Below the pieces are notes generated by a model, which worked only from the letters and a program-made list of their open reading frames with translations, ran no database searches and had not been told where the DNA came from. This document shows, piece by piece, positions 3,595-52,115 of a DNA stretch of 64,000 nucleotides (positions are counted from its first letter, which is position 1; each line of letters starts with the position of its first letter). The translations under genes and the position numbers were made by a program. Source of the stretch: a candidate division WWE3 bacterium RIFOXYC1_FULL_40_10. GTDB taxonomy: Bacteria; Patescibacteriota; WWE3; UBA101185; UBA10185. The DNA lies in contig MEWB01000001.1 of the NCBI GenBank assembly GCA_001773215.1, positions 69,964-133,963 on the forward strand, in the 5' to 3' direction.

Positions 3595-3642
3595 AGCGGC
3601 ACAAAAAGTTTACCAAAACTTGAGTGCCGCTTTTTCTTTTTC
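3595..3642 (+). terminator. Rho-independent terminator after the 2178-3572 gene
   Basis: Stem agcggcac (3595-3602) pairs with gtgccgct (3624-3631). The loop has its own inner stem. It is followed by ttttctttttc. The ORF-track start at 3624 lies inside this hairpin. Confidence 0.65.
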
Positions 3643-3674
3643 TCCCCTCAAGTATCTGCTATCATTTAATCCAG

Positions 3675-33380: not shown

Positions 33381-33522
33381 TATTTGTTCCTTTAAATAAA
33401 AAAACACTCACCGATATGAAAGGTGAGTAAATCAGTTTTTACTAAATTTTCACCTCGGCAAGATTTTTAATTCCGCTAAACGGAACCTTGCTATCTACGG
33501 CACGTTAAACAGTATAAGTGTT

Positions 33523-35921: not shown

Positions 35922-38900
35922 TCATTCCTCAAAGTTTATTGCCCCATTGTTGTACTCAATTTTTGCCTGAGTAGCTGTTAACGTGTAGGTCCAAATTTTG
36001 ACGTCGTCCATATCGCCTTCAAGATTTCCCATTCCTTCGATTCTGCCTATATCAAAATCTGTTGCGCTTAGGGAAGTTGCAGTTGAGATTACCACGTGTT
36101 GCCATATTCCTGCAGATAATGTGGTTGATGGAATCCCGTTTACAAATATTGTGGGCGATGAAAAGCCCTGAGCGGTGATAGTTCCGCCGTTAATCCACAC
36201 ATATGCGGAACCGTTTAGGTCAATTGGGTATTCTGTTGCGGAGGTTGGGTTAATCCAAAATGAAATGGAGTTAACCACATTGGGTCCTGCTCCTATATCA
36301 ACATAACCGTCTGAGCCGTTGAAGGTGTATCCATAGTTTAACTTGCCATTTGTTAGTAAAGTGACACCATTTGTCAAGGTTCCATTTATTCCGTTGCCGC
36401 TGGCATCGTAGGACACCGTGCCTGTAGTCTCATCCATTCTCCACCAGCCCCTTGGTCCTCCTTGGTTATAGTCCCAAGCAACTTGCGCGGGAGTACGGGC
36501 ATAATCGTAAATTCGGACCTGGTCAATCCCACCATCCCATTCACTGGAACCTGTTGATAGTTGGGAGCCTATATTAGCGAGTGTTTCATCGATACTACCT
36601 GTCCATGTACCCAAAGAACTAACTGTGCTTCCTTCCTGTTTTCCATTTATGTAAGCTCTGACTGCGTCGGAGGATTTGCTCCATGTGATAACTGCATGTG
36701 TCCAATCCGTGTAACTTGATGAGGACGTTGATACCCCTGAATTTGTTCCCCCGGCAATGTAATAGAACTGTAACTGGTTGTCCAGGGTGGATTTATGCAG
36801 CGTTACTCGATTATCGGTGTCTGCAGCTATGTATAGGAGTCTGTGGTTTACACCATCTGTCCAAATGCTGCTATTGGCTTTGAACCACAATTCTGCAGTT
36901 CCTTCTGATGTATCGAAAGCGTTAGCAAAGTTCGCGCTGTAAATATTAACAGAGGTGTTGAGTGCCGAATCGAACTCCAGAGCCTTGCCGAATTTGCCTG
37001 GAGACCAGGACGGGGAATTTACTAAGATCCCGTCGTAGCTGTTTCCACTTTTGTCATAAGCAGTGCTTCCGGCCCCGTCGTCAAAATTCCATTCTGCAAT
37101 TGGGTCAGAGCACGATGATGTATCACCGGGGACACAGTACCCACGATCTGCCGAATTATCTGGGGTTGCCCCATCTCCATCTGTGGAGAGAGCTCCAAAG
37201 CTTTGTGCCGTTCCATGGTTGTATTCAGTTTTTACTTGTTCTGCGGATAGTGCAAAGTTGTATATTTTTACTTCGTCAAGAATTCCGCTGAAAGGATTGG
37301 TTCCGGGGACATTGTTGGAATAGTGAGCACCGACTAAAATTCTGTCAGTTGGGTTTGCGTATATATTACATGTATCATAATCTGCCAAGTTGCCGTCGAC
37401 ATATATCGAATAAGTGCCGGAGGGGTTTATAGTAGCCACAGCGTGATGCCAATCACCGTCGTTATATCCGATCCCCGAAGCTGAGGAGCATGCAACTCCG
37501 TCGAATAGCATTACCATACCACTACTGTGTATTTGTAGAATGGGACCTGCTCTAACAGGGATATTTTCGTTTGAAATCAAAGTCTGTGTGCTTAAAGACG
37601 ATGTCTTAAACCAAGTTGAAAAAGTCAGTTCAGCCGATAAGTCTGCTGCTGTATTGACTTGAACATAATCTCCGTCTCCGTCAAAGCTTAAAGCCTTCCC
37701 ATACTTTCCCGAATTACTCCATGTGGCGTTTGACAATGTGCCATTAAGCGACGAGCCACCATTGCCTGAATTATTAGATGATGTTAAGTAACCCTCATCA
37801 AACTTGTAGTGGACAAGGGCAGAGGGGGTAGGAGATCCTGGTGCAGCATGTCCAGCATTCATGTCAGCAATTACTTGCTTTTCAGAACGCGCGTAGTTAT
37901 AAATTCGAACATCATCAGTAGCTCCGCTTAAGTAGGCACTTCCCTCAGTATATTTCCCGATTAGTAAGGGAGTGCTATCGGATCCAGTTGAGGTTGGTAC
38001 TGTGCCACTAAAAGTAAGAGTTTGTAGAGCACCATTAAAGTACAGTTTCAATCTGTTAGCGTTGCCTGTTTGCGCCCCGTCAAAAACCATAGCAACGTGA
38101 TGCCAAATGTTATTTGTTAGAATGTTTCCGGTAGTGTAGGCGTAAGGGTTGGAGCCGTCGTTGATTCTCACAAAAATATCGTCATTCCCGCCCAAACCGC
38201 CTGCTCGTAGTAAATCTATTTTCATGTTTTTAGAGATTATGCCTTCATATTGTGTCCCTGCGCCATCAACCTTAACCCAGGCTTCTGCTGTTAGGGCGCC
38301 CTGACTTTCAACTGAACTTATGTCACCTGCTGTCACATAATCATCGTTTCCGTCAAATTTAATTCCTTTTCCAAATTTGCCCTTTGTCCAGGTTGGTAGG
38401 TGAGTGGCTCCCGTTAATGTGCCGGTGTTTCCGTTACCTGATGAATCATTTGCTGAAATTCCTGTTCCTTCATCAAAATTCCAATGTGCTACAGGAGCCG
38501 GTGCCCAGCTGTAGAGCTGATCGATTTCAGCACCCGAAAGGGCTCGGTTGTAGATACGAACATCATCTAAGCGAGCATTTATAGAAAAAGCGTCATTATT
38601 TGGATAGGCTCTACCAAACCTATCGAAGCGGATACCGGAGCCATTTGATCCCGGATTTGAGCTTCCCTTGTACTCACCATTCAAGTACATCTTTACTAAA
38701 CCAGTGCCGTCTGCAACTGCTGTAACTAGATACCAGGTGGTGTTATTCATAGTTACAGTTACATCGGTAGGTGACTGGCTGTCGCGGTTTCTTGCGCCAA
38801 TCTTACTGGAAGCCCCGTTTACATAGGTGTATATATAACTGCCTTGTAAATTTACACCCAGGGGGATATTGTTTTTTACGTCATTCGGATAAATCCAATA

Positions 38901-41900
38901 TGATGTCGACCACGGGGCACCGTGTGCAAAATATATTTCAGAAGTAAATTGAACGTAATCGTCGGTTACAAGGTCGCCGGAATTTCCAAATTTACCTACA
39001 ACGCCACCAGAGGGGCCGGTGCTGTTAGGGCAAGCTTTGCCATTGTTTGCATTTCCGGAGGCATCCAAAACGGAGTATGTGGAACAGTCTACAGTCCAGC
39101 TTGCTTCATTCATCTTCCACCATCCCACCAACCCATCTGTCAAATTATCATTTTCTCTAGTGCCTATGGATACTGCAACCTGCTGTCCTAAATTGTCGGT
39201 CAAAACTTGTGCTGCCGAGCGTGCGTAAGGGTAAATGCTGACCTCATCAATATACCCAGTCCAAGGATTAGCAGTTCCATCACTATCAATACCTATATAT
39301 ATGGGGTTGTTGCCGTTGACTGTTGCCGGGGCAGCACGTGCCAGCTCAACTGCTGGGGTGCCATCTATGTATAGTGTAAGTGAAGCCGAGGATCTCACGG
39401 CTGAAAAACTATGCCACTTGCTGTCTGCGTAGCTAGTGGTAATACAGGCCGAGTCGCTATTTACGGAAAAGCACATATATCCTGAACTGTCCATATATAT
39501 TTTGTAGCCTGTTGTACCCGACTGACGGGACAAGACTGTGTCAGTTCCTGAAATAGTAGAGGGGTGCTTGAACAATCCGGAAAGGGTAAACTCGTTTGAA
39601 CCAAAATCGAAGTCTCTGTCAAAGTTTCTATAAGCAAAGTCGTTAGTGCCGTCATATGACAAGTAGCTGTTATTAGCATTTCTTGTCCAAGTGGCTCCAC
39701 TTGTAGTTAAATGATTTAAGTTTATGGATGAATCGTTAGCAGTGGTTCCATATCCTTCATCAAAATGCCACACCGAAGTAATATCTTGTCCTTTGTTGTC
39801 ACTAAACCTGTCTATTGTGATAGAACCGGCTGTTTCGCTTCTACTAACAAGTCCCGCACTGTACAAATCGGCAACTTGTGTTGAAGTTAGTGCCGCGTTG
39901 TAAATTCGTAAATCCGACATTGTTGCGTCGGATGGTCCGCCGTTTCCGCTTGGGTTGTACCCAACCCCAAAGTTTGTTGTATCAAATCCGAAGGCGGTTG
40001 TTTGGGGGGTTCCGGCGCTTCCGTTTACATAAATGGTTGATGTGCCTGCCGATCCGTCTCTTACGGCGGTTACGAAATACCATTTGTCCAGGGTCATTGT
40101 GGCCGAGGTGTATGTGGCAATGGTTGCCCCCGAGTTGTCAAAAAAGGCAAATCCTCCTACAGCAGGTTGAAATCTAATGGAAGGTCCTGTTTGACCGCTG
40201 GTGGGATCAATAAATTGTCTTACCTGTGTAGCGGTTCCTGAAACGGCTTTTGTCCAGAAGCCCAGGCTAAATGTGGTAGTACTTATATTATTTTCCACTG
40301 CATACTGCAATGTATCTGCAGTTCTTGTACTCGTACTCTCATGTCCTGTATCCGTCCACGCATATCCGGTTCCCAAAGTTCCATCCGCATAACTTGTTGC
40401 ATAAGTTTTTTCCTCTAGTTGCATTCCGTCCACATACATAGTTTTGTCAGCAGCTACAGCGACTCCATAATCGTTGCTTGCATCGCTTGTGGCATGAGAG
40501 TAGGTGATTCTGTACCATCCGCCCCCAACGTCTGTGTAAATGGCACCATCGCTTGTGGCATCCACCGTGCCTCCTTCCCAAACCAATCGTGCATTGCTTT
40601 CGGTAATGGGGCTTCCTATTTCGCCCGTAGTTCCATTAAAGACATATGCTGACAAAGTATGTGTAGTTATACCTCCGGGGCTTACGGCAGTTGAATATTC
40701 GGCAGTTGGTTGTGCCAAAGCGAATGTTATGTCGGTTAACAATCCCGAGTATTGGGCATAAACATAATTCCCGCTTGTTGCATCCATTCGAATATCCAGT
40801 TCATTGGCAACTGCAGGCATGCCGGCTGCAATGTCCCCGCTTGTAGTTCGTGTGTAGGATGTAGGAGTAATGTTAATGTTGGAACTTGTTACTGTGGCCG
40901 CAGTTGAAACATTGTACAGATCTATGTTGCCGTCACTCGCGGACACTTTAGCATAAGCTTGAAAGTATCTTGCGACAGCAGAGGTACCTGCCCAGTTAGC
41001 TGGATCAAAGCTAAGTAACCCATACTTTCTATCATAATTATTGTCGACCTCAGAAGTGGGTATATGCGAGGCATAGTGCATTAGCTGGGTTTCCAGTATT
41101 GTTGAGTTTTGCTCCAAGATTAGTTTGGCGCTGACAATTCTTGCCTGTTTCATTTCAAAAACATATTCCTTGCCGGTTGTAAGTGTAAATCCCGCACTTC
41201 TAAGCCGCCTTAGGCCTGTGGTTGTTGTAGTTGTTTCAGAAGCCGCCACTGATGCTCCGGTAGTTTTGTCATACAAGCCTATCGAACCTGTTGCACCCGC
41301 ATTGGGAAGATTTGCAATCTGAATAAGTATCGTAGACTGCGAAATGGATGCCGTTCCTCCGGATGTGGGTCTAAATCTTGTTATGTAAGACCGCGTATTG
41401 AAAGGTAAATCAAGATACAGATCTCCGGTTGTTTGCCGTGTCCATATTATTGCGTTAGTTGATTGTTCCGAGCCTGTTATTACAGCTGCGGTAATCGTGC
41501 TTATCGCTTGTTTATAAAAATCGGTATATGTTGATTCACCGGCATCCGAAGTTTTTACCACCACTTCGTGTTTAACAGTTGGGCGTGTGCCATAAGCTTC
41601 ATTATCAAAATAGAACGGGTATTCTATGCCATCTCCGTAGCTGGGATCCACCGATGTCTTATAATTATTTACAAGGGTAATGGGTATTTCCAAATCGGTA
41701 ATGCCCCCGACAGCCGACTGAACGAGAACTACCTTAGCACTTGCCACCACCGCATTTTTGAGTCTCATGGTATAGGTCTTTGCGGTAGTTAATGTAATTG
41801 CACTGCTTCTTACCGTTTGCCACCCTTTGGTAGCGCTGGTAACTTCCGAATCGGCAACAGAAGCAGTATCGGTGTAGTTGTACAGTTCCACGCCACCCGC

Positions 41901-44900: not shown

Positions 44901-45773
44901 GCCTGTTGTAAAGATTGTGAAAGACGGTTGTCTGGCTGAGACATGCCAGTATAAATAATATCCAACAGAGGTACCCGATTTAACTCCAGAAAGATAAGAA
45001 TAATAGGCATAGGGGGTTTTAGGGTAAATCCAGGTCTCAATTGTAAAGTCAGCGTTTGGTAAATCATCTAAGGACGGATTTGAACCCAGGTCAACTTCTT
45101 TTGGGTAACCAGATATGTCTAGGGCACTTTTGGAAGTGCTGTAGCGGAGGGCGCCTGTGGCGGTGGATGGTGTTTCGCCTGCCGCACAGGTAGTAGCACC
45201 CTCAAAGGGGCAAACAAGCAATGCGTCAATAGCTCCTATGTCAAAAGCATCAGGAGTATTAGTAGGGGATGTTGCCTGTTGGTTTCCGAAATACACATAA
45301 TAGCTTGTTGCTGTTCCTGCTGAGGATAATGAGGCTTGAAGTGGGAAATATACTTTTGTAGCTGTACTTGTGCCGCAAGTTTCACCGCTTGGATAAACTA
45401 TATGACGATTGAGGACAGTGTTAGTAGTATCGTTTGGTTGATACGCTATACGTAGGTCTGAACAATCGGGCTTAATTTTTGCCTGTGCTGCAAGGGTTTT
45501 TGTATCTACCGTGATCGCGATTGTTGTATTTGCCGAAAGGGAAACTGCGGAAGTGTTCACAATATTTAGCTGCTGTCTCTGAGCCCAGTCAGCCAGAGTA
45601 GGGGACCATATAGCTTGTGTGTTACCTGGGTTTCTGAACAAGATATAGATAATGGGGGTTAGAATTACCAAGGTGCCAACAAAAAAGGGAAGTAACGTTT
45701 TCTTTAATCTTTTTACGATAGGCAAGTACTTTTCAATCACAGCAATAACCTTACCAAATCTTTTTGCTCCCAT
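35922..45773 (-). CDS. Giant N-terminally membrane-anchored surface protein (3283 aa) built from repeated LamG/ConA-like (Laminin_G_3-type) jelly-roll domains plus N-terminal CBM-like repeats
   Basis: Uninterrupted 9.85-kb ORF. Signal-anchor VGTLVILTPIIYILF. At least 8 occurrences of the Laminin_G_3 signature (for example DDVRIYNRALSGAEIDQLY, LDEVKIYNFALSAEQV, MSDLRIYNAALTSTQVADLY, IDQVRIYDYARTPAQV). N-terminal ~170-aa repeats (VYFEVVMMETDTSGSAEAQLY / VYLEVVMTENGNGDCFAALY / VFFEVSFTETGSGDCSAALY). A Gly7 tract. Confidence 0.85.
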   Translation of the reverse strand: MGAKRFGKVIAVIEKYLPIVKRLKKTLLPFFVGTLVILTPIIYILFRNPGNTQAIWSPTLADWAQRQQLNIVNTSAVSLSANTTIAITVDTKTLAAQAKIKPDCSDLRIAYQPNDTTNTVLNRHIVYPSGETCGTSTATKVYFPLQASLSSAGTATSYYVYFGNQQATSPTNTPDAFDIGAIDALLVCPFEGATTCAAGETPSTATGALRYSTSKSALDISGYPKEVDLGSNPSLDDLPNADFTIETWIYPKTPYAYYSYLSGVKSGTSVGYYLYWHVSARQPSFTIFTTGGTYSFTSATGLTLDQWQHLAIVWNATAKTAQIYINGVSQVASPVPATGTYNSDAAYNKAIGSATYTERQLNSIIDEYRISNIKRYTGNFTPTTTPFIRDEYTKLLLHFDENGDDPRNTGKAIDDSGNGNHGTITGAKYIAGLVGVDNSSTTTGYESSGSYAGHGGVFMEEGTTNKITNPSFDHATYNTGWTATSTVTPAENTTAPFYKFGSKSAQLVAASDAGALDGGGGGGGEGNPTMEHHLEIISQVFETRGNSAVPTDNSLGLVYWDADKYPDSAVYFEVVMMETDTSGSAEAQLYTAAGDPLGPSLLSYAGSDGVYTRYRSDALTLADNTDYTVRISNSTTGRTAIKEARLVIVQTKEDGITTSQSNMELGYPEATSNDTFTQLTSQKAYYYDSSKFDPIPTAYVEATVDVAEPKIEQKINILNQDYKMAGADEDNGDTHVFLPGDNSLGVVHWDSTKYSGETVYLEVVMTENGNGDCFAALYDTDGTLISNEIAGGEPGGVYVTKRSTALTLVDGTAYTVRLRNDSVGAWSFLRSASLVVVQSDTTKITDTETLAEVGSAENTSSATYITPSYPKLYYYDSSVFSPTPTTYFEASFRPAEAKVTQQINIMDQVYSTTSGTAVPTDNSLGLINWDADKFPADSVEVFFEVSFTETGSGDCSAALYNTLGEEVDGSAVTGSKPGGVYVRKRSSTAISLIDGTDYSVRVKNTVAGQTTLIKSARLIVVQTGTTKLTTTQTYIEVGNNETSTQTAYTQLTDKKIYTYDADVYAPAPTTYFEATIANDTAGQTTSLALYENAATCVTEVASSEITVVGTTWARVRSSAITLSDSASYMVCMKTSANTAKVSNAKIIHEQTDAGGITKLELVHTLDNTLVTTVSTSYATTGHVYSFNPMEYGVAPIVYLDTTQKTTTGKTAFSTFHVDPVGSDGDAYITESELTTTSTSYVQLRSPELSAVMPKNPLDIATRIKNTTSGGTGSFSNTSVVLQLQNIPTGGTAGGVELYNYTDTASVADSEVTSATKGWQTVRSSAITLTTAKTYTMRLKNAVVASAKVVLVQSAVGGITDLEIPITLVNNYKTSVDPSYGDGIEYPFYFDNEAYGTRPTVKHEVVVKTSDAGESTYTDFYKQAISTITAAVITGSEQSTNAIIWTRQTTGDLYLDLPFNTRSYITRFRPTSGGTASISQSTILIQIANLPNAGATGSIGLYDKTTGASVAASETTTTTTGLRRLRSAGFTLTTGKEYVFEMKQARIVSAKLILEQNSTILETQLMHYASHIPTSEVDNNYDRKYGLLSFDPANWAGTSAVARYFQAYAKVSASDGNIDLYNVSTAATVTSSNINITPTSYTRTTSGDIAAGMPAVANELDIRMDATSGNYVYAQYSGLLTDITFALAQPTAEYSTAVSPGGITTHTLSAYVFNGTTGEIGSPITESNARLVWEGGTVDATSDGAIYTDVGGGWYRITYSHATSDASNDYGVAVAADKTMYVDGMQLEEKTYATSYADGTLGTGYAWTDTGHESTSTRTADTLQYAVENNISTTTFSLGFWTKAVSGTATQVRQFIDPTSGQTGPSIRFQPAVGGFAFFDNSGATIATYTSATMTLDKWYFVTAVRDGSAGTSTIYVNGSAGTPQTTAFGFDTTNFGVGYNPSGNGGPSDATMSDLRIYNAALTSTQVADLYSAGLVSRSETAGSITIDRFSDNKGQDITSVWHFDEGYGTTANDSSINLNHLTTSGATWTRNANNSYLSYDGTNDFAYRNFDRDFDFGSNEFTLSGLFKHPSTISGTDTVLSRQSGTTGYKIYMDSSGYMCFSVNSDSACITTSYADSKWHSFSAVRSSASLTLYIDGTPAVELARAAPATVNGNNPIYIGIDSDGTANPWTGYIDEVSIYPYARSAAQVLTDNLGQQVAVSIGTRENDNLTDGLVGWWKMNEASWTVDCSTYSVLDASGNANNGKACPNSTGPSGGVVGKFGNSGDLVTDDYVQFTSEIYFAHGAPWSTSYWIYPNDVKNNIPLGVNLQGSYIYTYVNGASSKIGARNRDSQSPTDVTVTMNNTTWYLVTAVADGTGLVKMYLNGEYKGSSNPGSNGSGIRFDRFGRAYPNNDAFSINARLDDVRIYNRALSGAEIDQLYSWAPAPVAHWNFDEGTGISANDSSGNGNTGTLTGATHLPTWTKGKFGKGIKFDGNDDYVTAGDISSVESQGALTAEAWVKVDGAGTQYEGIISKNMKIDLLRAGGLGGNDDIFVRINDGSNPYAYTTGNILTNNIWHHVAMVFDGAQTGNANRLKLYFNGALQTLTFSGTVPTSTGSDSTPLLIGKYTEGSAYLSGATDDVRIYNYARSEKQVIADMNAGHAAPGSPTPSALVHYKFDEGYLTSSNNSGNGGSSLNGTLSNATWSNSGKYGKALSFDGDGDYVQVNTAADLSAELTFSTWFKTSSLSTQTLISNENIPVRAGPILQIHSSGMVMLFDGVACSSASGIGYNDGDWHHAVATINPSGTYSIYVDGNLADYDTCNIYANPTDRILVGAHYSNNVPGTNPFSGILDEVKIYNFALSAEQVKTEYNHGTAQSFGALSTDGDGATPDNSADRGYCVPGDTSSCSDPIAEWNFDDGAGSTAYDKSGNSYDGILVNSPSWSPGKFGKALEFDSALNTSVNIYSANFANAFDTSEGTAELWFKANSSIWTDGVNHRLLYIAADTDNRVTLHKSTLDNQLQFYYIAGGTNSGVSTSSSSYTDWTHAVITWSKSSDAVRAYINGKQEGSTVSSLGTWTGSIDETLANIGSQLSTGSSEWDGGIDQVRIYDYARTPAQVAWDYNQGGPRGWWRMDETTGTVSYDASGNGINGTLTNGVTLLTNGKLNYGYTFNGSDGYVDIGAGPNVVNSISFWINPTSATEYPIDLNGSAYVWINGGTITAQGFSSPTIFVNGIPSTTLSAGIWQHVVISTATSLSATDFDIGRIEGMGNLEGDMDDVKIWTYTLTATQAKIEYNNGAINFEE

Positions 45774-45801
45774 AAATAGGAAAGTTTTTCTTTGTATTTT
45801 T

Positions 45802-48800
45802 TTATTCTCTGTTAACTATTAACCAATCGAATTTTATGTCGGTTCCAAACTCGTTTTCCACCTCAATCGTAAAGGATTCTCCTGCTGTTTTTTCTGAAAC
45901 TATTAGTGATTGGCCGCCTGTTGGTGTTGTAGGGGTGACCATAATTACTGAATTGGCGGATACTTGTTTGGAATTTACTGTTACACTTGTTGAATTAGCC
46001 TGCAGTTCAGAGGATCCCACTGCATCGGATGCATCATCAACAATAATCTCTCCCGCTTTGATAATTGTAGCTTCAACCTGTCCTTCAACTTTAATATTGC
46101 CGTCTGGGGATATGACAATTTTTCCATTGAATATGTCAACGTTCCCCGCCAAGCCTTTTTGTAAATATAGGGTTTGGGTGTCGCACAAGGCTGTGTCGAT
46201 TTTCTCTGTTGCTTGGTTGTAACAAGAAGGTCCAATGATATCAAAAGAGTCTTCCATCGGATCCAGTGACATTAAACCTGCAGACAGCGTGCCGGTCACT
46301 GTTACATCCGAAAAGGTTGCGTTTCCTGTCACGCTCATATCGCTGTTAACTAATAATCCACCATCTGAGGTACTTAGCCCAAGAGCATTACTGAATTCAG
46401 TAAACTCATCATATATTTTCTTCATTTCAGACAAAATGTCGGCAGGTAAAGACTGTGTAGATTGGGTGGTTTGACTTGCTTGTGTTGTGGCATCAAGTTT
46501 AGCTAGTATGTCATCAATAATATTCTGTTGATCTTGAATTGCCTTAACGAGTACCGGTGTTAAACTGCCGTAAGCAATACCCATGGAGCCGTCTTCTCCT
46601 GAAACAACCTCCGGGATTATTTCTTTAACATCTTGTGCAATTAACCCAATGCTGGAGTCCCCGGTTTTTTTGAAATCAAATCTTACCGGGTTCAAGGCCA
46701 AAACTTCTGCCAATCCATAATCCAGTGTTTCCACATTTTCCTTAAAAGCAAGATCAGAGGCATCATTCCAGCAGGTTGTTCCGTCGCAGTATGCTTCGGC
46801 TCCGGAAAGATAAAGTCGATAGGCTCCGGGATCCGTGGTTCCGATTCCTAGATTTCCTAGTTCATCTAGCGTCATTTTTGCTGTTATGTACCCTTCGCTA
46901 CCGTCTCCGCCACCATTCGTGGTTCCAAAAATTAAGTTCCCTGTATAACCCCCTGTAGATGGACTCCAAATTGCTGCAGCGTTATTCACATAATTTTTAA
47001 AGATGATACCTGCCCTGGAATTTGTCGTGGTGCTGTCGTTCGCTATTAACAGACCTGCTGTTACTGATGTTGAGCTATTTGTGTCATACACCGTCAATTT
47101 CTTGGTAAAGGTTGATGTTCCAATACCAGTATTGCCACTTGTGTCAATGGTTAAGAATGCATTTGTCCCCGCAGTCGTGCCATCACCAACCATAAACAGA
47201 TCATCATCATCTCCACCGGCATCCTCCTGCACACCCATCCAAAAGTTTGTGTCCGTAGCGGTTTTTGTATCAAATAAAATGGTGGGGTCCGAGGCAAGCA
47301 GTTGCATATCTCCGGTACCGGATAAATTGAACACCGCATTGCCTGTACCATAAGTTTTGAGAGTAAAGTCATTATTCTCGAAACTTTCGCCCGATATTAT
47401 TGATAGCGGGCCGTATGACTCGATTTGTGATGCTGTCTGATTTGTCATGTTGAGATCATATGCAATAGCCACATCTCCGGCGGCGCTAAATGTTGTTGGG
47501 ACAAAAAATTCAGCTCTTGCCGCTCCTAATGTTGCTATATTAGTTCCCGTGTCAGCAAAAGTAAGATTGCCTGCTGAATCTATTGTAAACGAAGAGTAGT
47601 TTCCTGCATTGTAGCTAAGTCTTAGTTGTTCGGTTGTTCCTAAAATTTCCAGTTTAGATGCGGGAGCAGTTGTTCCTATACCTAATCTATCAGTAGAATC
47701 GGCCCAGAAGAAATTCGTAGCATCCTGTGTCATATATGTTCCGTTACCGAACATAATTCCACCGTTTGTCACAGTTGCTCCATCGAGCATATTTAACTCC
47801 GCCGCTGAGGAAGTGACCTGTGTTCCGCCAAGATATAATGTTGCCAAATAGGCATTTCCATCAACTTCTAAATTACCATACACATATAAATCTTCGTTAA
47901 CAGTACCGTTATCAAACGTGTATCCTGTGTCGGGGGCAATATATGTGTCTCCCCCAACAATATGCATCTGTGAGTCGGGGTCAGTAGTTCCAATTCCTAC
48001 ATTATCTGCTGCATCCGCGACGATAGCGTCATCGGCATATCTAAATAACCCATTGGTATCATCTCGATACCATATCATTTCATCGCCATTTCCTCCGAAA
48101 CCACCAATGCCAACTGACGAAATACTGCCGTTTGAAAAATACACTCCGTTGCTTGCTGTGGTATGTAGGGTAAGGGGTATTTCCGTCGTGTCTCTTCCAA
48201 AAATGGTCTCTCCAGCTACTTCAAAAGCACCTCGGGGTACCGTTGTACCTATACCTACAGATCCGGCATTGTCGATGTACAAGGTCCCCGCGTCAAAGTT
48301 AAAATCAGCGGTGTTAGTGTCCATATTAATTGTAGTAGTGGCATCGAGTGTCATGGTATCGGTAAATTCTGACCAATCAAGGGAGTCTGGGGTAATTCCG
48401 GTAGCACCAATTGTTGCCCAAGTGAGAGTTCCCGTACCTCCGTTAGTTAGTACGCCGTTTGTAGTATGCCCAGTAGGCCAAGAGTAAGTTAAATTTTTGA
48501 GTTTAATAATGTCCCCATTGGCATCTATTTGAAAAGGTGATGTAGCTCCTATGGAGAATAGGGAAGTGGGGTTAGTTGTTCCAACACCGACATTGCCACC
48601 AAAATAATTGGTTCCGCCTACGGAGTAGATTGCATAATCCAAGCTAGTCCCTGAAGTTTGATCTTCAATGTATAATCCGTAGTTGTTTGCAATAGTGGCA
48701 CCTGAGTAAAGGTAGGGGTTGGCTATATAGATTTGATAAAGATTTGTAGTTACTGCGTTAGTAAAGTAACCTTGATAATCGGAGTAGATACCATATGCGT

Positions 48801-51201
48801 TTGGGATCGATGTAGAATATGTAGCCGCGGCATTTGAGATCAGATTTTTCATTCCGTACATATCTGATACCGTTGTTACACCCGAGCCAGAAGGGAGAGC
48901 ATTTGAAACCGATGTCAGGTTATAAATTCCGGTGGCTTCAGTATGTGTTGTTCCTGGTCCGTATATCCTATTTATGTTTTGTAGAGCGACCGTGCTGTTA
49001 GTATTAACCCCTCCGGAATCTGCACTTCCTGCTTCCAAGAGATTAAATACAGCATAGGAGATACCGCTGTGATTATTATTAGTACCTTTCTTGAGTATCA
49101 GTTCGTTATCTATTCCTGTCGTGGTTCCGTATAATTGGGCATTCGCCCTAACTTTGGTAAGAATCTTTTCACCCGTTGCATCTCCTCCTCCGTTTGTGTC
49201 TGTAAAGTCGTAGTCTTCCGAGTGCGCAAAGATATCGGATCCTGTAGCAGTATAGTCTGTATTTATAAGCAAACTAGATCCCGAGTCTGGACCGTAAATC
49301 ATTACGTTTCCGTTGGAAGTTGTTGTGCCATTGGATTCAATAGTGAAGTACCCATCTCCTACCGTAAGAAGCGCGTTAGGTGCAGTTGTACCTACTCCTA
49401 CGTACCCCGTATCCAAGATAGTCATTAGCCCACTATTACCATACCTTACAGCGCCTATATCCGGATCATATACGGCCAGGGTGACATTAGCAGAAGAATC
49501 ATACAAACCAAACTCCCCGTCAGTGAAGATGCCACCGTTACCCAGATACCCGCCACTTCCAGTTAGTGGACCGATTGAGATAGGTATCTCGTTTCCACCC
49601 AGGTATGAATCCCCATTTACCTCGAAGGTAAATAGCCCTGGTGCCGATACACCTATTCCTACTGCTCCTCCGCTTGGATTGAGGACGACGTCCCCACGAC
49701 TCCCAAAGCCTCTAGGGGCTCCGCCACTTATAAATACATCTCCGCCGCTGGAGCCAAACGCCATAAATGCGCCCGCATAGCTTCCCGTTATATATAAATC
49801 GGTCCCACTTCCGAATCCGGGCGTATCCGTCATTTTGATGGTTCTGTTTGCTGATCCATCCAGATATGTATCTCCTGCTATTGTCAATGTCGCTGTTGGT
49901 GCAGTTGTACCTATACCCACATATCCGGCATTATCAATATATAGTGTTCCTGCATCAAAATTAAAATCCGCGGAGTTGGTATCCATGTCAATGGTAGTAG
50001 TTGCATCTAATGTCATTATATCTTTGAACTCCGACCAGTCCAAAGAGTCAGCGGTAATTCCTCCGGCACCTATGGTTCCCCAAGAAAGAGTTCCCGTTCC
50101 ATTGTTAGTTAAAATTCCGCTCGATACATGGGAAGTCGGCCATGAGTATGTTAAGTTCTTTAATTTAATTATATCTCCGTTTGTATCAATCTGAAATTGC
50201 GAACTTGCTCCAACTGATAGGGGAGAAGTTGGGGTATTCGTTCCAATTCCGAATCTGTAGTTGGTATTGTCCCAGTATAAATTTGTGACATTCTGTGCAA
50301 ATTTGCTACCGTTCCCGAACAGTATTCCTCCGGCGGTTGCTGTTGATCCGTTCAAATAACTCAATTCCTGGGCAGTTGTACTTATTGTGGTTCCGCCTAT
50401 ACTCCAGTCTTCTGGGAGATCTACACTGCCCTCAAGTATTAAGTCACCACCGTAGGTTATCTCATCTGCTAAGTGCTCCTCAGTAATTATTCCGGATTTA
50501 ATTTTCACATCATTTAGTCCGGTCCCGACAAGGTCTCCGTTAATATCTAGTGCAGTTTCCAGAGTGGTTTCCGTTACTGTGTCGATTCCCCCGAGCCTGT
50601 TCATTTGTCCTATTGTGACTGTTCCAGTCCCAAAGTTTCCGGAGGCCCCTTGCGTGTCTAACCCTCCTTTTAAAGTTGCTATGCCTTCGGCACTTAGTGT
50701 TTTTGCGAAGTTCGAGTCCACTGTCACCGCGAAGAGGTAGTCTTTTATCGAGTCACTTGCTTGAAGAACATTAGCGAGGGAATTTGAGCGATTTTTTACC
50801 GGGTTTTTTTCCTTACCGGCCGCTGCTCCAAAGATCAAAAGAAATACTATGAAGATAGTAAATGCTAAACTCGTTAGTCTGAAAGCTCTGGATAAGTTGC
50901 TTAAAGGTTTAATCAGAATGTTTTTCTCAACTATTTGTACCCTTGGTGACGAAGAATACGTTGTCACTTTAGTTTGTTGTTTGCTTGCAGCCAGTTTTTC
51001 TTGAAGCTGTAGGATGTCCCCTAGGCCAAAGACCCTATATCCGTTATCCAATCTTTTTGAGTTTATCAGTTTGAGAGATTCATGCCTTCTTAGTGAAGAC
51101 GTTGACATACCAAGCAAAGATGCTGCTTCAGACACACTTAGTTGCGTTCTGTTTTTTATATTCGATATGTCATTAGAGTTCTGTTGGGCAGGAACTTCCA
51201 T
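45802..51201 (-). CDS. Giant membrane-tethered fibre-like protein (1799 aa): N-terminal HTH_17-like domain, single TM, tail-fibre-like repeats, intramolecular chaperone (peptidase S74-like) domain, ~230-aa C-terminal domain
   Basis: N-terminal LSVSEAASLLGMSTSSLRRHESLKLINSKRLDNGYRVF (HTH). TM LTSLAFTIFIVFLLIFGAAAG. Repeated GIGTT(A/N/D)P motifs. Segment SDLAFKENVETLDYGLAEVLALNPVRFDFKK...IGLIAQDVKEIIPEVV matches the tail-fibre/endosialidase auto-chaperone domain. Confidence 0.85.
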   Translation of the reverse strand: MEVPAQQNSNDISNIKNRTQLSVSEAASLLGMSTSSLRRHESLKLINSKRLDNGYRVFGLGDILQLQEKLAASKQQTKVTTYSSSPRVQIVEKNILIKPLSNLSRAFRLTSLAFTIFIVFLLIFGAAAGKEKNPVKNRSNSLANVLQASDSIKDYLFAVTVDSNFAKTLSAEGIATLKGGLDTQGASGNFGTGTVTIGQMNRLGGIDTVTETTLETALDINGDLVGTGLNDVKIKSGIITEEHLADEITYGGDLILEGSVDLPEDWSIGGTTISTTAQELSYLNGSTATAGGILFGNGSKFAQNVTNLYWDNTNYRFGIGTNTPTSPLSVGASSQFQIDTNGDIIKLKNLTYSWPTSHVSSGILTNNGTGTLSWGTIGAGGITADSLDWSEFKDIMTLDATTTIDMDTNSADFNFDAGTLYIDNAGYVGIGTTAPTATLTIAGDTYLDGSANRTIKMTDTPGFGSGTDLYITGSYAGAFMAFGSSGGDVFISGGAPRGFGSRGDVVLNPSGGAVGIGVSAPGLFTFEVNGDSYLGGNEIPISIGPLTGSGGYLGNGGIFTDGEFGLYDSSANVTLAVYDPDIGAVRYGNSGLMTILDTGYVGVGTTAPNALLTVGDGYFTIESNGTTTSNGNVMIYGPDSGSSLLINTDYTATGSDIFAHSEDYDFTDTNGGGDATGEKILTKVRANAQLYGTTTGIDNELILKKGTNNNHSGISYAVFNLLEAGSADSGGVNTNSTVALQNINRIYGPGTTHTEATGIYNLTSVSNALPSGSGVTTVSDMYGMKNLISNAAATYSTSIPNAYGIYSDYQGYFTNAVTTNLYQIYIANPYLYSGATIANNYGLYIEDQTSGTSLDYAIYSVGGTNYFGGNVGVGTTNPTSLFSIGATSPFQIDANGDIIKLKNLTYSWPTGHTTNGVLTNGGTGTLTWATIGATGITPDSLDWSEFTDTMTLDATTTINMDTNTADFNFDAGTLYIDNAGSVGIGTTVPRGAFEVAGETIFGRDTTEIPLTLHTTASNGVYFSNGSISSVGIGGFGGNGDEMIWYRDDTNGLFRYADDAIVADAADNVGIGTTDPDSQMHIVGGDTYIAPDTGYTFDNGTVNEDLYVYGNLEVDGNAYLATLYLGGTQVTSSAAELNMLDGATVTNGGIMFGNGTYMTQDATNFFWADSTDRLGIGTTAPASKLEILGTTEQLRLSYNAGNYSSFTIDSAGNLTFADTGTNIATLGAARAEFFVPTTFSAAGDVAIAYDLNMTNQTASQIESYGPLSIISGESFENNDFTLKTYGTGNAVFNLSGTGDMQLLASDPTILFDTKTATDTNFWMGVQEDAGGDDDDLFMVGDGTTAGTNAFLTIDTSGNTGIGTSTFTKKLTVYDTNSSTSVTAGLLIANDSTTTNSRAGIIFKNYVNNAAAIWSPSTGGYTGNLIFGTTNGGGDGSEGYITAKMTLDELGNLGIGTTDPGAYRLYLSGAEAYCDGTTCWNDASDLAFKENVETLDYGLAEVLALNPVRFDFKKTGDSSIGLIAQDVKEIIPEVVSGEDGSMGIAYGSLTPVLVKAIQDQQNIIDDILAKLDATTQASQTTQSTQSLPADILSEMKKIYDEFTEFSNALGLSTSDGGLLVNSDMSVTGNATFSDVTVTGTLSAGLMSLDPMEDSFDIIGPSCYNQATEKIDTALCDTQTLYLQKGLAGNVDIFNGKIVISPDGNIKVEGQVEATIIKAGEIIVDDASDAVGSSELQANSTSVTVNSKQVSANSVIMVTPTTPTGGQSLIVSEKTAGESFTIEVENEFGTDIKFDWLIVNRE
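47900..48560 (-). repeat. Internal repeat copy A within the 1799-aa gene (partner at 49830-50240), ~75-80% nt identity by eye
   Basis: Encoded protein segments are near-identical (...IKLKNLTYSWPTSHVSSGILTNNGTGTLSWGTIGAGGITADSLDWSEF... vs ...IKLKNLTYSWPTGHTTNGVLTNGGTGTLTWATIGATGITPDSLDWSEF...). Antisense six-frame ORFs 47918-48487 and 49835-50194 mirror each other. Confidence 0.6.
49830..50240 (-). repeat. Internal repeat copy B within the 1799-aa gene
   Basis: See copy A. Confidence 0.6.
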
Positions 51202-51221
51202 ATTTATCCTTGTAATTTCCT

Positions 51222-51281
51222 ACTATATCAATGTTTAGTAAGGATTACACTGTTAATTTTAGAAACCAACTATATCAATGT
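51222..51281. promoter_or_regulatory. Two 13-nt direct repeats ACTATATCAATGT (51222-51234 and 51269-51281) in the divergent control region
   Basis: Exact 13-mer repeated 47 nt apart. One copy overlaps the -35/spacer of the minus-strand promoter; the other lies in the predicted 5' UTR of the giant-gene transcript. Confidence 0.5.
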
Positions 51282-51284
51282 CAA
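51256..51284 (-). promoter_or_regulatory. Near-consensus sigma70 promoter (TTGACA-17-TAAAAT) driving the giant-gene pair
   Basis: On the minus strand, ttgaca is the reverse complement of 51279-51284, the spacer is 17 nt, and taaaat is the reverse complement of 51256-51261. The predicted TSS is about 47 nt upstream of the start codon at 51201. Confidence 0.55.

Positions 51285-51305: not shown

Positions 51306-52115
<810 letters not shown>

What the first reader, a model, noticed from the sequence alone, without database searches (positions are those of the whole stretch)
35922..51284. Tandem pair of giant surface-protein genes (5.4 kb + 9.85 kb) forming a probable two-gene operon with its own near-consensus promoter
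Two uninterrupted minus-strand ORFs of 1799 and 3283 codons sit 28 nt apart. They are driven by a TTGACA-17-TAAAAT promoter at 51256-51284 and together occupy 24% of the window. The upstream protein combines a cytoplasmic HTH, one TM helix, tail-fibre-like repeats and a phage-type intramolecular-chaperone domain. The downstream protein is an N-anchored array of LamG/ConA-like lectin-fold domains. In a small-genome, envelope-focused organism, such a pair is a strong candidate for a dedicated host- or partner-attachment apparatus. The domain combination of HTH + TM + fibre + auto-chaperone, followed by a lectin-repeat partner, is not an architecture I recognise as described.
Basis: partly seen in the sequence, partly recalled or inferred. 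Interest (0 to 1): 0.8.

Follow-up and report, generated by a model that had tools for sequence, protein, structure and literature searches.

The report
Membrane-anchored fibre and lectin adhesin pair
Two giant neighbouring genes of a tiny candidate-phylum (WWE3) bacterium encode a phage-tail-fibre-like surface fibre whose inner end carries a DNA-binding domain, plus a chain of sugar-binding-type domains; this is probably gear for sticking to other cells, and the fibre-to-DNA link is the unusual, untested part.

Summary
ORFs of 1799 aa (45802-51201, -) and 3283 aa (35922-45773, -) lie 28 nt apart behind TTGACA-17-TAAAAT (51284-51256). The exact proteins occur on 11 and 8 public contigs of candidate division WWE3 (CPR, 0.9 Mb), named only "hypothetical protein".

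**Gene A:**
- a basic BldC/MerR-like winged HTH with no dimerisation helix;
- one TM helix;
- a 1350-aa acidic fibre with VGIGTTxPxxxL motifs;
- a Peptidase_S74 chaperone with an intact S1482/K1487 dyad;
- a coiled coil and a tailspike-type C-terminal beta-sandwich.

An A-like gene lies next to a multi-LamG gene in 5 of 6 independent Patescibacteria loci.

The closest known relatives are the Bdellovibrio MAT fibre adhesins and transmembrane transcription regulators. The new element is their fusion. The HTH-TM anchor heads a large family: 1,563 representative proteins at E<=1e-10, up to 4,594 aa. I found no paper describing it.

S74 cleavage happens outside the cell, so it cannot release the HTH. 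A 16-nt direct repeat flanking the promoter suggests self-binding, but this is inference.

Verdict: a new variant of known kinds, of moderate to high interest. Adhesion and DNA binding are both untested.

The parts
51256..51284 (-). Sigma-70-like promoter TTGACA-17-TAAAAT
   Evidence: Read directly. It is the only 11/12 match in 35.5-51.6 kb. Function is not tested.
51266..51281 (-). Direct repeat copy 1 (ACATTGATATAGTTGG). It overlaps the -35 hexamer and the spacer. Candidate operator, or an extended -10 element (TGATATAGT).
   Evidence: The 13-nt exact core occurs only twice in the 64 kb window, both times here. A repeat of 13 nt or more appears in 0.055% of shuffles of the 140-bp intergenic region.
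51219..51234 (-). Direct repeat copy 2 (ACATTGATATAGTAGG). It lies 47 bp downstream of copy 1, between the predicted transcription start and the AAGGA ribosome-binding site.
45802..51201 (-). Gene A (A3K34_00615), 1799 aa: HTH-TM-fibre-S74-CTD protein
50977..51159 (-). A aa 15-75: cytoplasmic BldC/MerR-like winged HTH. Only about 14 helical residues follow the wing, so there is no MerR coiled-coil dimerisation helix.
   Evidence: Pfam MerR 25.5 bits. A profile of 9 homologues hits BldC 6amk/6ama at E 3e-9, then BrlR, CueR, SoxR and RacA. The N-terminal 104 aa have pI 10.0.
50809..50889 (-). A aa 105-131: the single TM helix (signal anchor, N-in)
   Evidence: Hydropathy scan. The N-domain is basic and the ectodomain acidic, pI 4.05.
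46759..50808 (-). A aa 132-1481: extracellular fibre. It has 8-9 VGIGTTxPxxxL motifs and an internal duplication (aa 313-445 / 864-999).
   Evidence: PHROG tail-fibre families. Motif count. Internal repeats. Repeat DNA is 69% identical with mismatches mostly at third codon positions. Homology to a Pseudobdellovibrio tail-fibre-domain protein.
46432..46758 (-). A aa 1482-1590: Peptidase_S74 intramolecular chaperone. The predicted self-cleavage is immediately before Ser1482 (S1482-D-L-A-F-K1487).
   Evidence: Pfam 44.8 bits, above GA 22. The SDxxxK motif is present, and S, D and K are invariant in 10 homologues.
45805..46431 (-). A aa 1591-1799: the post-S74 module, made of a coiled coil, beta domains and a terminal beta-sandwich of about 75 aa (CTD, K1-lyase_C-like)
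   Evidence: Alignment. K1-lyase_C scores 29.7 bits, above GA 27, when scanned alone. The AF2 last domain has pLDDT about 88. Foldseek best match is the cyanophage Pam1 tailspike C-terminus, 31% identity, E 5e-4, followed by K1 lyase, R-pyocin fibre and H-type lectin.
45774..45801 (-). 28-nt A-rich A/B spacer without a terminator
35922..45773 (-). Gene B (A3K34_00610), 3283 aa: N-anchored multi-lectin-fold protein
45630..45698 (-). B aa 26-48: TM signal anchor after a tail with 8 K/R in 25 residues
44634..45629 (-). B aa 49-380: weak DUF2341-like region plus LamG domain 1 (aa 236-380)
   Evidence: Homologues carry clear DUF2341 hits.
40674..44192 (-). B aa 528-1700: six beta-rich repeats, three of about 185 aa (T1) and three of about 205 aa (T2), with a jelly-roll fold
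   Evidence: Self-comparison. The family occurs in Patescibacteria proteins. The AF2 model has pLDDT 76 and pTM 0.70. Foldseek matches are TNF-like lectins PLTL and BC2L-C, Chlamydia Pgp3, Bdellovibrio MAT tip Bd2734 and CBMs, at TM only 0.36-0.46.
35964..40295 (-). B aa 1827-3270: seven LamG/ConA-like domains
   Evidence: Pfam Laminin_G_3 430 bits. Domain map.

Best explanation
This is a chromosomal two-gene operon of a WWE3 (Patescibacteria) cell that builds a surface adhesion apparatus.

**Gene A.** Its product inserts N-in/C-out through one TM helix. Its roughly 1,700-residue ectodomain is exported. By analogy with phage endosialidase and T5 fibres and with Bdellovibrio MAT fibres, it folds from the C-terminus into a homotrimeric fibre nucleated by the S74 chaperone. 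The chaperone then cuts before Ser1482.

This leaves a fibre of about 1,350 residues tethered to the membrane. The 318-residue C-terminal piece is either released or stays loosely bound. That piece consists of the S74 domain, a coiled coil and a tailspike-like beta-sandwich.

**Gene B.** It is co-transcribed with A. Its product is a membrane-anchored string of about 16 beta-sandwich lectin-type domains, which supplies multivalent glycan binding.

**The cytoplasmic end.** Each A chain carries a BldC-like MerR-type HTH at its cytoplasmic end. Trimerisation would therefore present three HTHs at the inner face of the membrane. I infer that they bind DNA. The likeliest target is the 16-nt direct repeats that bracket A's own promoter. 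That would give assembly-dependent autoregulation and/or hold the locus at the membrane for coupled transcription, translation and insertion of these very long proteins.

**Shown versus inferred.** Shown: the domain anatomy, the intact catalytic dyad, the conserved A + LamG gene neighbourhood, and the family-wide HTH-TM anchor. Inferred: trimer formation, cleavage, adhesion, DNA binding and its target.
For: - **ORFs, promoter and spacer:**
- **S74:** above the Pfam cutoff, with an invariant S/D/K motif.
- **Fibre character:** tail-fibre PHROG hits and 8 VGIGTTxPxxxL motifs. A aligns with a Pseudobdellovibrio tail-fibre-domain protein over the S74-proximal 217 residues and over the repeat modules.
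- **Precedent:** MAT fibres are experimentally surface-located adhesins that self-cleave at SDxxxK (PMC10769870).
- **HTH:** the profile hits BldC at E 3e-9, then canonical MerR proteins and RacA. BldC lacks a dimerisation helix and binds direct repeats as head-to-tail multimers (PMC5859096).
- **Topology:** basic N-domain (pI 10) and acidic ectodomains (pI 4.05 and 4.56).
- **Gene-pair conservation:** window, L002, L003/L004, L007 and L008, five of six independent loci.
- **Lectin-type folds:** the CTD and the B repeats, plus 8 LamG domains.
- **Direct repeat at the promoter:** unique in the window and rare in shuffles.
- **Membrane-bound regulators acting from the membrane:** these are established (PMC10269533). 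Capture of a locus for transertion has been argued for Vibrio T3SS2 (PMC9977878, abstract).
Against: - No experiment or expression data exist for this organism.
- The AF2 monomer of the C-terminal 358 aa is poor, pLDDT 58, so the trimer is not modelled.
- Only two repeat copies exist, 47 bp apart, rather than adjacent sites as with BldC. Each copy also reads as an extended -10 element (TGATATAGT).
- No comparable repeat motif was recognisable upstream of the A-like genes in L001, L002 and L003.
- No diverged orthologue was available to test promoter conservation, because L013 is 100% identical.
- Some A-like fibres have a plain signal peptide and no HTH (P0028), so the HTH is dispensable for fibre function.
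- A possible receptor-binding beta-sandwich placed after the cleavage site is odd for an adhesin.
- The Nomurabacteria loci (L001/L006) have no LamG partner.
Confidence: 0.6

Rival explanations
1. The HTH does no DNA-related work. It is a basic, folded cytoplasmic plug or topogenic cap. It fixes the N-in orientation and keeps a single-helix anchor from being pulled out when the long fibre is under load. The pair is simply two adhesins.
For: - Family members use unrelated N-terminal folds in the same position: MerR/HTH_17, or the phage-integrase SAM-like domain in P0013, P0018 and P0055.
- Some have only a signal peptide (P0028).
- The N-domain is basic, as the positive-inside rule requires.
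Against: - The alternative N-terminal folds are themselves DNA-binding modules.
- The recognition-helix and wing residues (S-x-S-T-L-R-R-x-E; R38, R39, R50 and R56 invariant) are conserved among homologues that are only 21-39% identical overall.
- 126 of the 144 newly listed top hits carry two tandem HTHs. That fits DNA avidity better than a plug.
- The profile matches experimentally DNA-bound BldC over the whole 52 residues.
Confidence: 0.2
2. A is primarily a sensor, a transmembrane transcription regulator of the ToxR/CadC type. Its huge ectodomain detects host contact or tension and changes expression of other genes. Adhesion is secondary. The HTH might be freed by regulated intramembrane proteolysis after the ectodomain is shed.
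For: - The topology is that of single-pass transmembrane transcription regulators (TTRs) (PMC10269533).
- A 219-aa paralogue in the window (17757-18416) has only HTH + TM + the small CTD, which looks like a minimal sensor. It is conserved next to a Wzy_C/TPR membrane protein.
- The family spans 110 to 4,594 aa with the same head.
- JGI already auto-names 4.4-4.6 kaa members 'MerR regulator'.
Against: - No target genes or signal are known.
- S74 cleavage is extracellular and cannot release the HTH.
- No site-2 protease was linked to the locus; only a weak Peptidase_M50 hit lies near L001.
- The exact repeat motif occurs nowhere else in the 64 kb; only 2-mismatch chance-level matches were found.
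Confidence: 0.15
3. The two genes are a prophage remnant, that is, phage tail-fibre and receptor-binding genes, and not cellular surface proteins.
For: - S74, tail-fibre PHROGs and a tailspike-like C-terminal domain.
- A phage 'virion structural protein' PHROG hit in B.
- GC content slightly above the flanks, 0.44-0.46 against about 0.40.
Against: - Both proteins have N-terminal TM anchors.
- The flanks are the ATP-synthase operon and DprA/ComM, with no other phage genes.
- The same position beside the ATP synthase genes recurs in Nomurabacteria (L001) and in L007.
- The GC excess fits the Gly/Thr/Ala-rich composition.
- The internal duplication shows old, purifying-selection-type divergence.
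Confidence: 0.03

Closest known systems
Bdellovibrio bacteriovorus MAT (mosaic adhesive trimer) fibres, S74 subgroup (Caulton et al. 2024, PMC10769870)
   Same: - Both are cellular, non-phage, very long fibre proteins of a bacterium that lives on other bacteria.
- Both have a C-terminal S74 chaperone/protease with an SDxxxK motif.
- Both show recurrent G-x-G-T-x-x-P-x-x-x-L type loop motifs.
- Sequence similarity to a Pseudobdellovibrio family member was measured directly.
- B's repeats share the TNF-like jelly-roll fold of the MAT tips (8okw).
   Different: [quoted passage not shown] A has a cytoplasmic HTH and a TM anchor instead.
- A is about twice as long.
- A continues for about 210 residues beyond the S74 domain.
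- A is paired with a giant LamG gene.
Phage endosialidase and T5 L-shaped tail-fibre C-terminal intramolecular chaperone domain (Peptidase_S74)
   Same: The Pfam family and the Ser/Lys dyad are the same. The domain is preceded by a fibre or beta-helix-like region that hits tail-fibre PHROGs.
   Different: - A is not a virion protein; it is membrane-anchored.
- The released fragment would be 318 aa, against about 90-130 aa in the plain S74 proteins of the hit list.
Transmembrane transcription regulators (TTRs: ToxR, CadC, TcpP, VtrA; Demey et al. 2023, PMC10269533)
   Same: All have an N-terminal cytoplasmic DNA-binding domain, a single TM helix and an extracytoplasmic C-terminal domain.
   Different: - The known examples use OmpR-type or other HTHs with small sensor domains.
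- Here the HTH is BldC/MerR-like and the 'sensor' is a 1,700-aa self-cleaving fibre.
- Patescibacteria are not mentioned in that survey (0 occurrences).
- Regulation by A is unproven.
BldC (Streptomyces), Xis-type excisionases and RacA: MerR-like DNA-binding domains without the MerR dimerisation helix
   Same: They are the best solved-structure matches of the N-domain profile: BldC at E 3e-9 and RacA at E 1e-4. None has a coiled-coil or effector domain. BldC binds direct repeats, and a direct repeat brackets A's promoter.
   Different: BldC is a free 68-aa protein and RacA reaches the membrane through DivIVA. In A the domain is covalently joined to a TM helix and an ectodomain.
MYRF (eukaryotic myelin regulatory factor)
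   Same: It is the only characterised protein that combines a DNA-binding domain, a TM helix and an S74-type (ICA) self-cleaving trimerisation domain in one chain.
   Different: - The domain order in MYRF is DBD-ICA-TM, so the cut frees the DBD in the cytoplasm. (This order is from my own knowledge; only confirms that MYRF is an S74-containing protein.)
- In A the order is HTH-TM-fibre-ICA, so the cut is outside the cell and leaves the HTH tethered.
- The DBD family also differs: Ndt80-type against MerR-type.
Giant ConA/LamG-bearing surface proteins of CPR episymbionts (for example Absconditicoccaceae; PMC13059738)
   Same: They are very large, TM- or signal-peptide-bearing proteins with concanavalin-A-type domains, proposed to mediate host recognition.
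   Different: That work lists domains only. It does not report the conserved pairing with an S74 fibre gene or the six jelly-roll repeats.

Membership tests
Peptidase_S74 / C-terminal intramolecular chaperone | Profile match above the curated cutoff | tested here: met
   PF13884 scores 44.8 bits against cutoff 22, at aa 1482-1533.
Peptidase_S74 / C-terminal intramolecular chaperone | Catalytic Ser-Lys dyad in an S-D-x-x-x-K motif | tested here: met
   S1482-D-L-A-F-K1487 is present. S, D and K are invariant in a 10-sequence alignment.
Peptidase_S74 / C-terminal intramolecular chaperone | Trimerisation-dependent autoproteolysis that releases the chaperone | not testable with these tools
   This needs expression of wild type against S1482A. 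The AF2 monomer model is uninformative.
MAT fibre superfamily (PMC10769870) | Long fibre with recurring capping-loop motif and an S74 or alternative tip | tested here: met
   A has 8 VGIGTTxPxxxL-type motifs and an S74 domain. BLASTP against a Pseudobdellovibrio tail-fibre-domain protein gives E 2e-15.
MAT fibre superfamily (PMC10769870) | [quoted passage not shown] | tested here: inconclusive
   A has an HTH and a TM anchor in place of a signal peptide. BLASTP gave no N-terminal alignment to P0052, but no Bdellovibrio HD100 MAT sequence was available for a profile test.
MerR family transcription regulators (canonical) | N-terminal winged HTH of MerR type | tested here: met
   The single sequence scores 25.5 bits, below GA 28.2. 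A profile of 9 homologues hits BldC, BrlR, CueR and SoxR at E 3e-9 to 6e-6.
MerR family transcription regulators (canonical) | Long coiled-coil dimerisation helix and C-terminal effector-binding domain | tested here: not met
   After the wing only about 14 helix-prone residues precede an S/T/P-rich linker and the TM helix at aa 105. A is therefore BldC/Xis-like and not a canonical MerR regulator, despite database names such as 'MerR family transcriptional regulator'.
Transmembrane transcription regulators (TTR) | DNA-binding domain plus at least one TM region in one protein | tested here: met
   The definition is in PMC10269533.
Transmembrane transcription regulators (TTR) | Regulates transcription from the membrane | not testable with these tools
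   The only indirect hint is the 16-nt direct repeat at A's own promoter.
MYRF-like self-releasing membrane transcription factor | S74/ICA domain on the same side of the membrane as the DBD, so that cleavage frees the DBD | tested here: not met
   The TM helix at aa 105-131 lies between the HTH (aa 15-75) and the S74 domain (aa 1482 onward).
Laminin_G_3 / ConA-like lectin-glucanase superfamily (gene B) | Profile match above the cutoff, in multiple copies | tested here: met
   429.7 bits in 7 stretches. A locus-specific HMM finds 8 copies.
DUF2341 (gene B N-terminus) | Profile match above the cutoff | tested here: inconclusive
   E 0.059 and 14.3 bits against cutoff 23.4. Homologues with the same layout have recorded DUF2341 hits.
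Diversity-generating retroelement target | VR/TR repeat pair with adenine-specific mismatches, plus a reverse transcriptase nearby | tested here: not met
   The internal repeat of A is 69% identical, with mismatches of all types and mainly at third codon positions. No RT was seen among the Pfam-annotated neighbours.

The most novel reading that the evidence does not exclude
In Patescibacteria, surface adhesins from about 200 aa to over 4,500 aa are built as one-piece 'adhesin-transcription factor' proteins. Trimerisation of the ectodomain, its S74-checked assembly, or host contact and tension on it would set the oligomeric state of BldC-like HTHs at the inner membrane face. This would couple the state of the cell surface directly to DNA, through autoregulation, capture of the locus at the membrane for transertion, or anchoring of the nucleoid at the attachment site. 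That would be a main signalling route in organisms that have few classical two-component systems. Gene A, with its promoter-flanking direct repeats, would be a directly testable example.
Probability: 0.25. Interest if true: 0.8.

Novelty: new variant of a known kind. Interest (0 to 1): 0.6.

Why it matters
CPR/Patescibacteria make up a large share of bacterial diversity. Most appear to live attached to other cells, yet almost nothing is known about how they recognise hosts or sense attachment.

This locus gives a concrete, conserved candidate: a self-cleaving fibre plus a multi-lectin partner. It is homologous to the one experimentally studied predator fibre system, the Bdellovibrio MAT fibres.

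The covalent link between a surface fibre and a DNA-binding domain is widespread. There are 1,563 representative proteins at E<=1e-10, many of them over 2,000 aa. It is absent from the literature I could search, and databases currently mislabel members as 'MerR regulator', 'tail fiber domain-containing protein' or 'hypothetical protein'.

If the HTH binds the repeats at its own promoter, this would be a compact case of surface-assembly feedback or transertion. It could be tested with two recombinant fragments and a 140-bp DNA.

If the HTH is inert, the pair is still a useful but ordinary CPR adhesin operon.

Tried and rejected
- **Prophage origin.** Rejected: the flanks are housekeeping genes, both proteins have TM anchors, and the chromosomal position is conserved.
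- **MYRF-like release of the HTH by S74.** Rejected on topology.
- **DGR-type diversification of A's internal repeat.** Rejected on the mismatch spectrum.
- **Assembly artefact or frameshift.** Rejected for the window, because the exact proteins are on 11 and 8 contigs. One variant contig does carry two frameshifting deletions.
- **A wide survey of loci.**
  - The first genome contigs attempt failed because the alignment was too diverse.
  - The second found only 2 loci.
  - The first metagenome contigs attempt failed.
  - The second found 10 loci, mostly short contigs that add nothing on pairing.
  - The 5-of-6 pairing figure therefore rests on few loci.
- **A conserved operator.** No shared motif or comparable repeat was recognised upstream of the A-like genes in L001-L003. 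The closest 'other strain' (L013) is 100% identical and so uninformative.
- **AF2 monomer of the C-terminal 358 aa.** Poor except for the last domain, so nothing can be said about the beta domains between the coiled coil and the CTD.
- **Direct PDB sequence search with full-length A.** No useful hit.
- **Literature.** Searches for S74 + Patescibacteria, Laminin_G_3 + CPR and MerR + TM + CPR found no description.
- **NCBIfam hits.** TafC at 136 bits against cutoff 410, and GTA_spike_fiber at 36.5 against 36. I treated the TafC hit as generic LamG (beta-sandwich) similarity and did not examine the GTA_spike_fiber hit (aa 1691-1795), which lies just upstream of the LamG array; neither was pursued.

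Full report
**1. The observation**

The window holds two uninterrupted minus-strand ORFs. Gene A is 45802-51201 (1799 aa) and gene B is 35922-45773 (3283 aa). They are separated by 28 A-rich nucleotides with no terminator-like hairpin. Together they cover 23.8% of the window.

TTGACA-17-TAAAAT lies at 51284-51256. At 11/12 it is the best sigma-70-type match in 16 kb. It sits in the only intergenic region (140 bp), which is shared with the divergent ATP-synthase operon. B ends 13 nt from the convergent ComM/DprA genes.

The organism is candidate division WWE3 (Katanobacteria, CPR), strain RIFOXYC1_FULL_40_10. The exact A and B sequences are on 11 and 8 public contigs, the longest 903,723 bp. 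They are annotated as hypothetical proteins A3K34_00615 and A3K34_00610. The intact ORFs are therefore not an assembly accident.

**2. Anatomy of gene A**

- **N-terminal HTH.** Residues 15-75 match MerR HTH models just below threshold (25.5 against 28.2 bits). A profile built from nine homologous N-termini hits solved structures convincingly. The best are BldC (6amk/6ama, E 3e-9), then BrlR, CueR and SoxR, with RacA also listed.
- **No dimerisation helix.** The MerR coiled-coil and effector domain are absent. An S/T/P-rich linker leads to the single TM helix at aa 105-131.
- **Topology.** The N-domain is basic (pI 10.0). Everything after the helix is acidic (pI 4.05) and rich in Gly and Thr. 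This fits an N-in/C-out topology.
- **Fibre.** Residues 132-1481 hit only phage tail-fibre PHROGs. They contain eight VGIGTTxPxxxL-type motifs and an old internal duplication.
- **S74 domain.** Peptidase_S74 is hit above threshold at aa 1482-1533. The catalytic S1482-D-x-x-x-K1487 motif is invariant in relatives.
- **Post-S74 module.** Unlike the plain S74 proteins in the hit list, where 60-130 residues follow the Ser, A and its HTH-bearing relatives carry 318-379 residues after it. These comprise a variable coiled coil, beta-rich segments and a terminal domain of about 75 aa.
- **Terminal domain (CTD).**
  - It passes the K1-lyase_C cutoff when scanned alone (29.7 against 27 bits).
  - It is the only confidently modelled part of the AF2 monomer (pLDDT about 88).
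  - It superposes on the C-terminal beta-sandwich of the cyanophage Pam1 tailspike (31% identity, E 5e-4).
  - It also superposes on Klebsiella-phage depolymerases including K1 lyase, R-pyocin fibres and H-type lectins.

**3. Anatomy of gene B**

- A tail of 25 residues with 8 K/R is followed by a TM anchor at aa 26-48.
- A weak DUF2341-like region follows (E 0.059). DUF2341 is clear in homologues.
- There is one LamG domain at aa 236-380 and seven more at aa 1827-3270.
- With a 22-sequence alignment, the repeat gives an acceptable model (pLDDT 76, pTM 0.70). Its ordered 130 residues form a jelly-roll.
- The best matches are TNF-like lectins (Photorhabdus PLTL, Burkholderia BC2L-C), Chlamydia Pgp3, the Bdellovibrio MAT tip Bd2734 and CBMs. 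TM-scores are only 0.36-0.46, so this is a fold class and not a family assignment.

B is therefore a membrane-anchored string of about 16 lectin-type beta-sandwiches.

**4. Related loci**

Homologues of A are giant Patescibacteria proteins. Several repeat the full MerR/HTH_17 ... S74 layout: P0004 (3141 aa), P0006 (1857 aa), P0007 (2886 aa) and P0019 (2745 aa).

| Locus | A-like gene | Position of the multi-LamG gene |
|---|---|---|
| Window | gene A | 28 nt downstream |
| L002 | P0004 | directly downstream, overlapping by 8 nt; two TM-anchored multi-LamG genes |
| L003/L004 | P0007 | 7 nt downstream (2625 aa) |
| L007 | P0019 | immediately upstream |
| L008 | P0028 | 2 kb downstream |
| L001/L006 (Nomurabacteria) | P0006 | none |

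So 5 of 6 independent loci pair the fibre with a LamG giant. This supports a functional module, although the sample is small. My wider scans returned few usable loci.

The position next to ATP-synthase genes recurs in the window, L001 and L007. This argues for chromosomal inheritance and against a mobile element.

**5. The HTH-TM head is a family trait**

Searching 1.84 billion representative proteins with the N-terminal profile gave 21,361 hits at E<=1e-3 and 1,563 at E<=1e-10. Among the 144 new top hits:

- 100 have a TM helix right after the HTH or HTHs;
- most have two tandem HTHs;
- lengths run from about 110 to 4,594 aa, with 29 of at least 1,000 aa;
- 32 end in the same CTD;
- 9 have an S74 domain.

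JGI auto-annotates 2.9-4.6 kaa members as 'DNA-binding transcriptional MerR regulator'. They lie on contigs of 0.4-1.2 Mb, the size of CPR genomes.

Other relatives have a phage-integrase SAM-like DNA-binding domain in the same place (P0013, P0018, P0055). Others have only a signal peptide (P0028).

The CTD also ends giant proteins that lack S74.

Within the window itself, a 219-aa paralogue (17757-18416, A3K34_00495) consists of just a MerR-like HTH, a TM helix and the CTD. It is conserved, together with a downstream Wzy_C/TPR membrane protein, in other lineages.

The two ends of A, the HTH-TM head and the CTD, thus form a recurring scaffold into which ectodomains of any length are inserted.

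**6. Promoter repeats**

ACATTGATATAGT(T/A)GG occurs twice, at 51266-51281 and 51219-51234, 47 bp apart. One copy overlaps the -35 hexamer and spacer. The other lies between the predicted start site and the ribosome-binding site.

The 13-nt core occurs nowhere else in 64 kb. A repeat that long arises in 0.055% of shuffles of the intergenic region.

BldC-type domains bind direct repeats as head-to-tail multimers (PMC5859096), so self-binding is an attractive reading. However, each copy also reads as an extended -10 element (TGATATAGT). In addition, I could not show conservation: the other strains are identical, and the distant loci show no common motif.

**7. Mechanism**

*Shown.* The domain order and topology, the intact S74 dyad, the conserved pairing, and the family-wide head and tail.

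*Inferred from established family knowledge.* S74 domains drive and proof-read trimerisation of fibres and then cut themselves off, including in the cellular MAT adhesins of Bdellovibrio. By that analogy, A forms a trimeric fibre anchored by three TM helices, with the cut before Ser1482 taking place outside the cell. B would add multivalent glycan binding.

*Speculative.* The three HTHs (six in tandem-HTH relatives) may bind the promoter repeats once the fibre has trimerised. That would give assembly-dependent feedback or hold the locus at the membrane. Membrane-bound regulators are known to work from the membrane (PMC10269533), and transertion has been argued for Vibrio T3SS2 (PMC9977878).

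*Excluded.* A MYRF-style release of the HTH is ruled out, because the TM helix lies between the HTH and the S74 domain.

*Open.* The role of the 318-aa post-cleavage piece is unresolved. Because the CTD also occurs without S74 and directly after the TM helix in the mini-protein, I favour a trimerisation or lectin cap over a disposable chaperone.

**8. Comparison and novelty**

A belongs to the S74 fibre class and is homologous to MAT-type fibres. It also meets the formal definition of a transmembrane transcription regulator. It is not a canonical MerR regulator. B is a LamG-array surface protein of the kind already noted in CPR episymbionts.

The new elements are:

- the fusion of a BldC-like HTH and TM anchor to a self-cleaving fibre;
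- the extended post-S74 module;
- the conserved pairing with a LamG giant;
- the size of the HTH-TM family.

My searches found no paper describing any of these.

I therefore rate it a new variant of known kinds, with interest 0.6. The adhesin reading is unsurprising for CPR specialists. The fibre-to-DNA link is surprising and easy to test.

**9. A variant worth noting**

JGI contig L009 is identical to the window over 17,691 bp with zero mismatches, except for a 22-nt and a 4-nt deletion. Both are inside the 5' third of A (window ~50664-50685 and ~50126-50129). Both are flanked by 2-nt microhomology, and both shift the reading frame.

In that contig the HTH-TM head (173 aa) would be made alone. 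The 1445-aa remainder lacks an export signal.

This is either an assembly error or a loss-of-function (on/off) variant of the fibre in the population. Read mapping would decide.

Noticed in passing
window 17757-18416 (-), with 15454-17667 (-): A 219-aa paralogue (A3K34_00495) consists only of a MerR-like HTH, a TM helix (aa 102-131) and the same C-terminal beta-sandwich as gene A (E 8.6e-12). It is followed by a 737-aa Wzy_C/O-antigen-ligase-like + TPR membrane protein. The pair is conserved at 38-40% identity in other lineages, where it lies next to DprA/ComM (L010-L012).
   Followed up: partly
L009 9481 and 10015 (= window ~50664-50685 and ~50126-50129): In a JGI metagenome contig that is otherwise 100% identical over 17.7 kb, gene A carries 22-nt and 4-nt deletions with 2-nt microhomology. 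They split it into ORFs of 173, 163 and 1445 aa. This is either a population on/off variant of the fibre or an assembly error.
   Followed up: partly
window 30238-31146 (+): A soluble 302-aa protein has an N-terminal HTH_17/MerR_1 domain (E 5e-9) related to the head of gene A. It continues with a long acidic low-complexity linker and an unassigned C-terminal domain.
   Followed up: no
P0225, P0229, P0232, P0234, P0239 (hits): Proteins of 1.5-2 kaa from Woesebacteria-type genomes combine N-terminal HTH domains, a family-2 glycosyltransferase (cellulose-synthase-like) and the same jelly-roll repeats as gene B. This is another case of a DNA-binding head on an envelope protein in CPR.
   Followed up: no
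window 51256-51264 and 51327-51335: A 9-nt perfect inverted repeat (ATTTTAGAA / TTCTAAAAT) places the same TTCTAAAAT -10-like element on both strands. It serves gene A on the minus strand and, only about 7 nt before the listed GTG start at 51342, the divergent ATP-synthase operon. The true start of that first atp gene may lie further downstream.
   Followed up: no
L007 990-1550 and 16520-17047: Two 23S_rRNA_IVP (four-helix-bundle) genes, one just upstream and one about 6 kb downstream of the A-like gene, which there sits between a LamG gene and atpD/atpC.
   Followed up: no
L003 9765-9911: GC-rich direct repeats of 49 nt (82% identity, 68-nt spacing) and 20 nt lie just upstream of the A-like gene of a different Patescibacteria lineage. 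Their nature is unknown.
   Followed up: no
window 3624-5954 (+) and 5977-9483 (+): A 776-aa PMT_2-type glycosyltransferase is followed by a 1168-aa multi-TM protein with no Pfam hit. Together with the Wzy_C-like protein and a sortase (10479-11192), they point to heavy surface glycosylation and anchoring machinery near the Thr/Ser-rich giants.
   Followed up: no
window 33390-33518 (-): An Rfam L10 leader (56.6 bits) lies upstream of the rplJ/rplL genes, directly beside DprA. This is ordinary and is recorded only for the map.
   Followed up: no
P0222: A 1969-aa DUF2341 + LamG + jelly-roll-repeat protein with the same layout as gene B is assigned by NCBI to a 'Candidatus Sifarchaeia archaeon' MAG. 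This is either binning contamination or a transfer between CPR and Asgard archaea.
   Followed up: no
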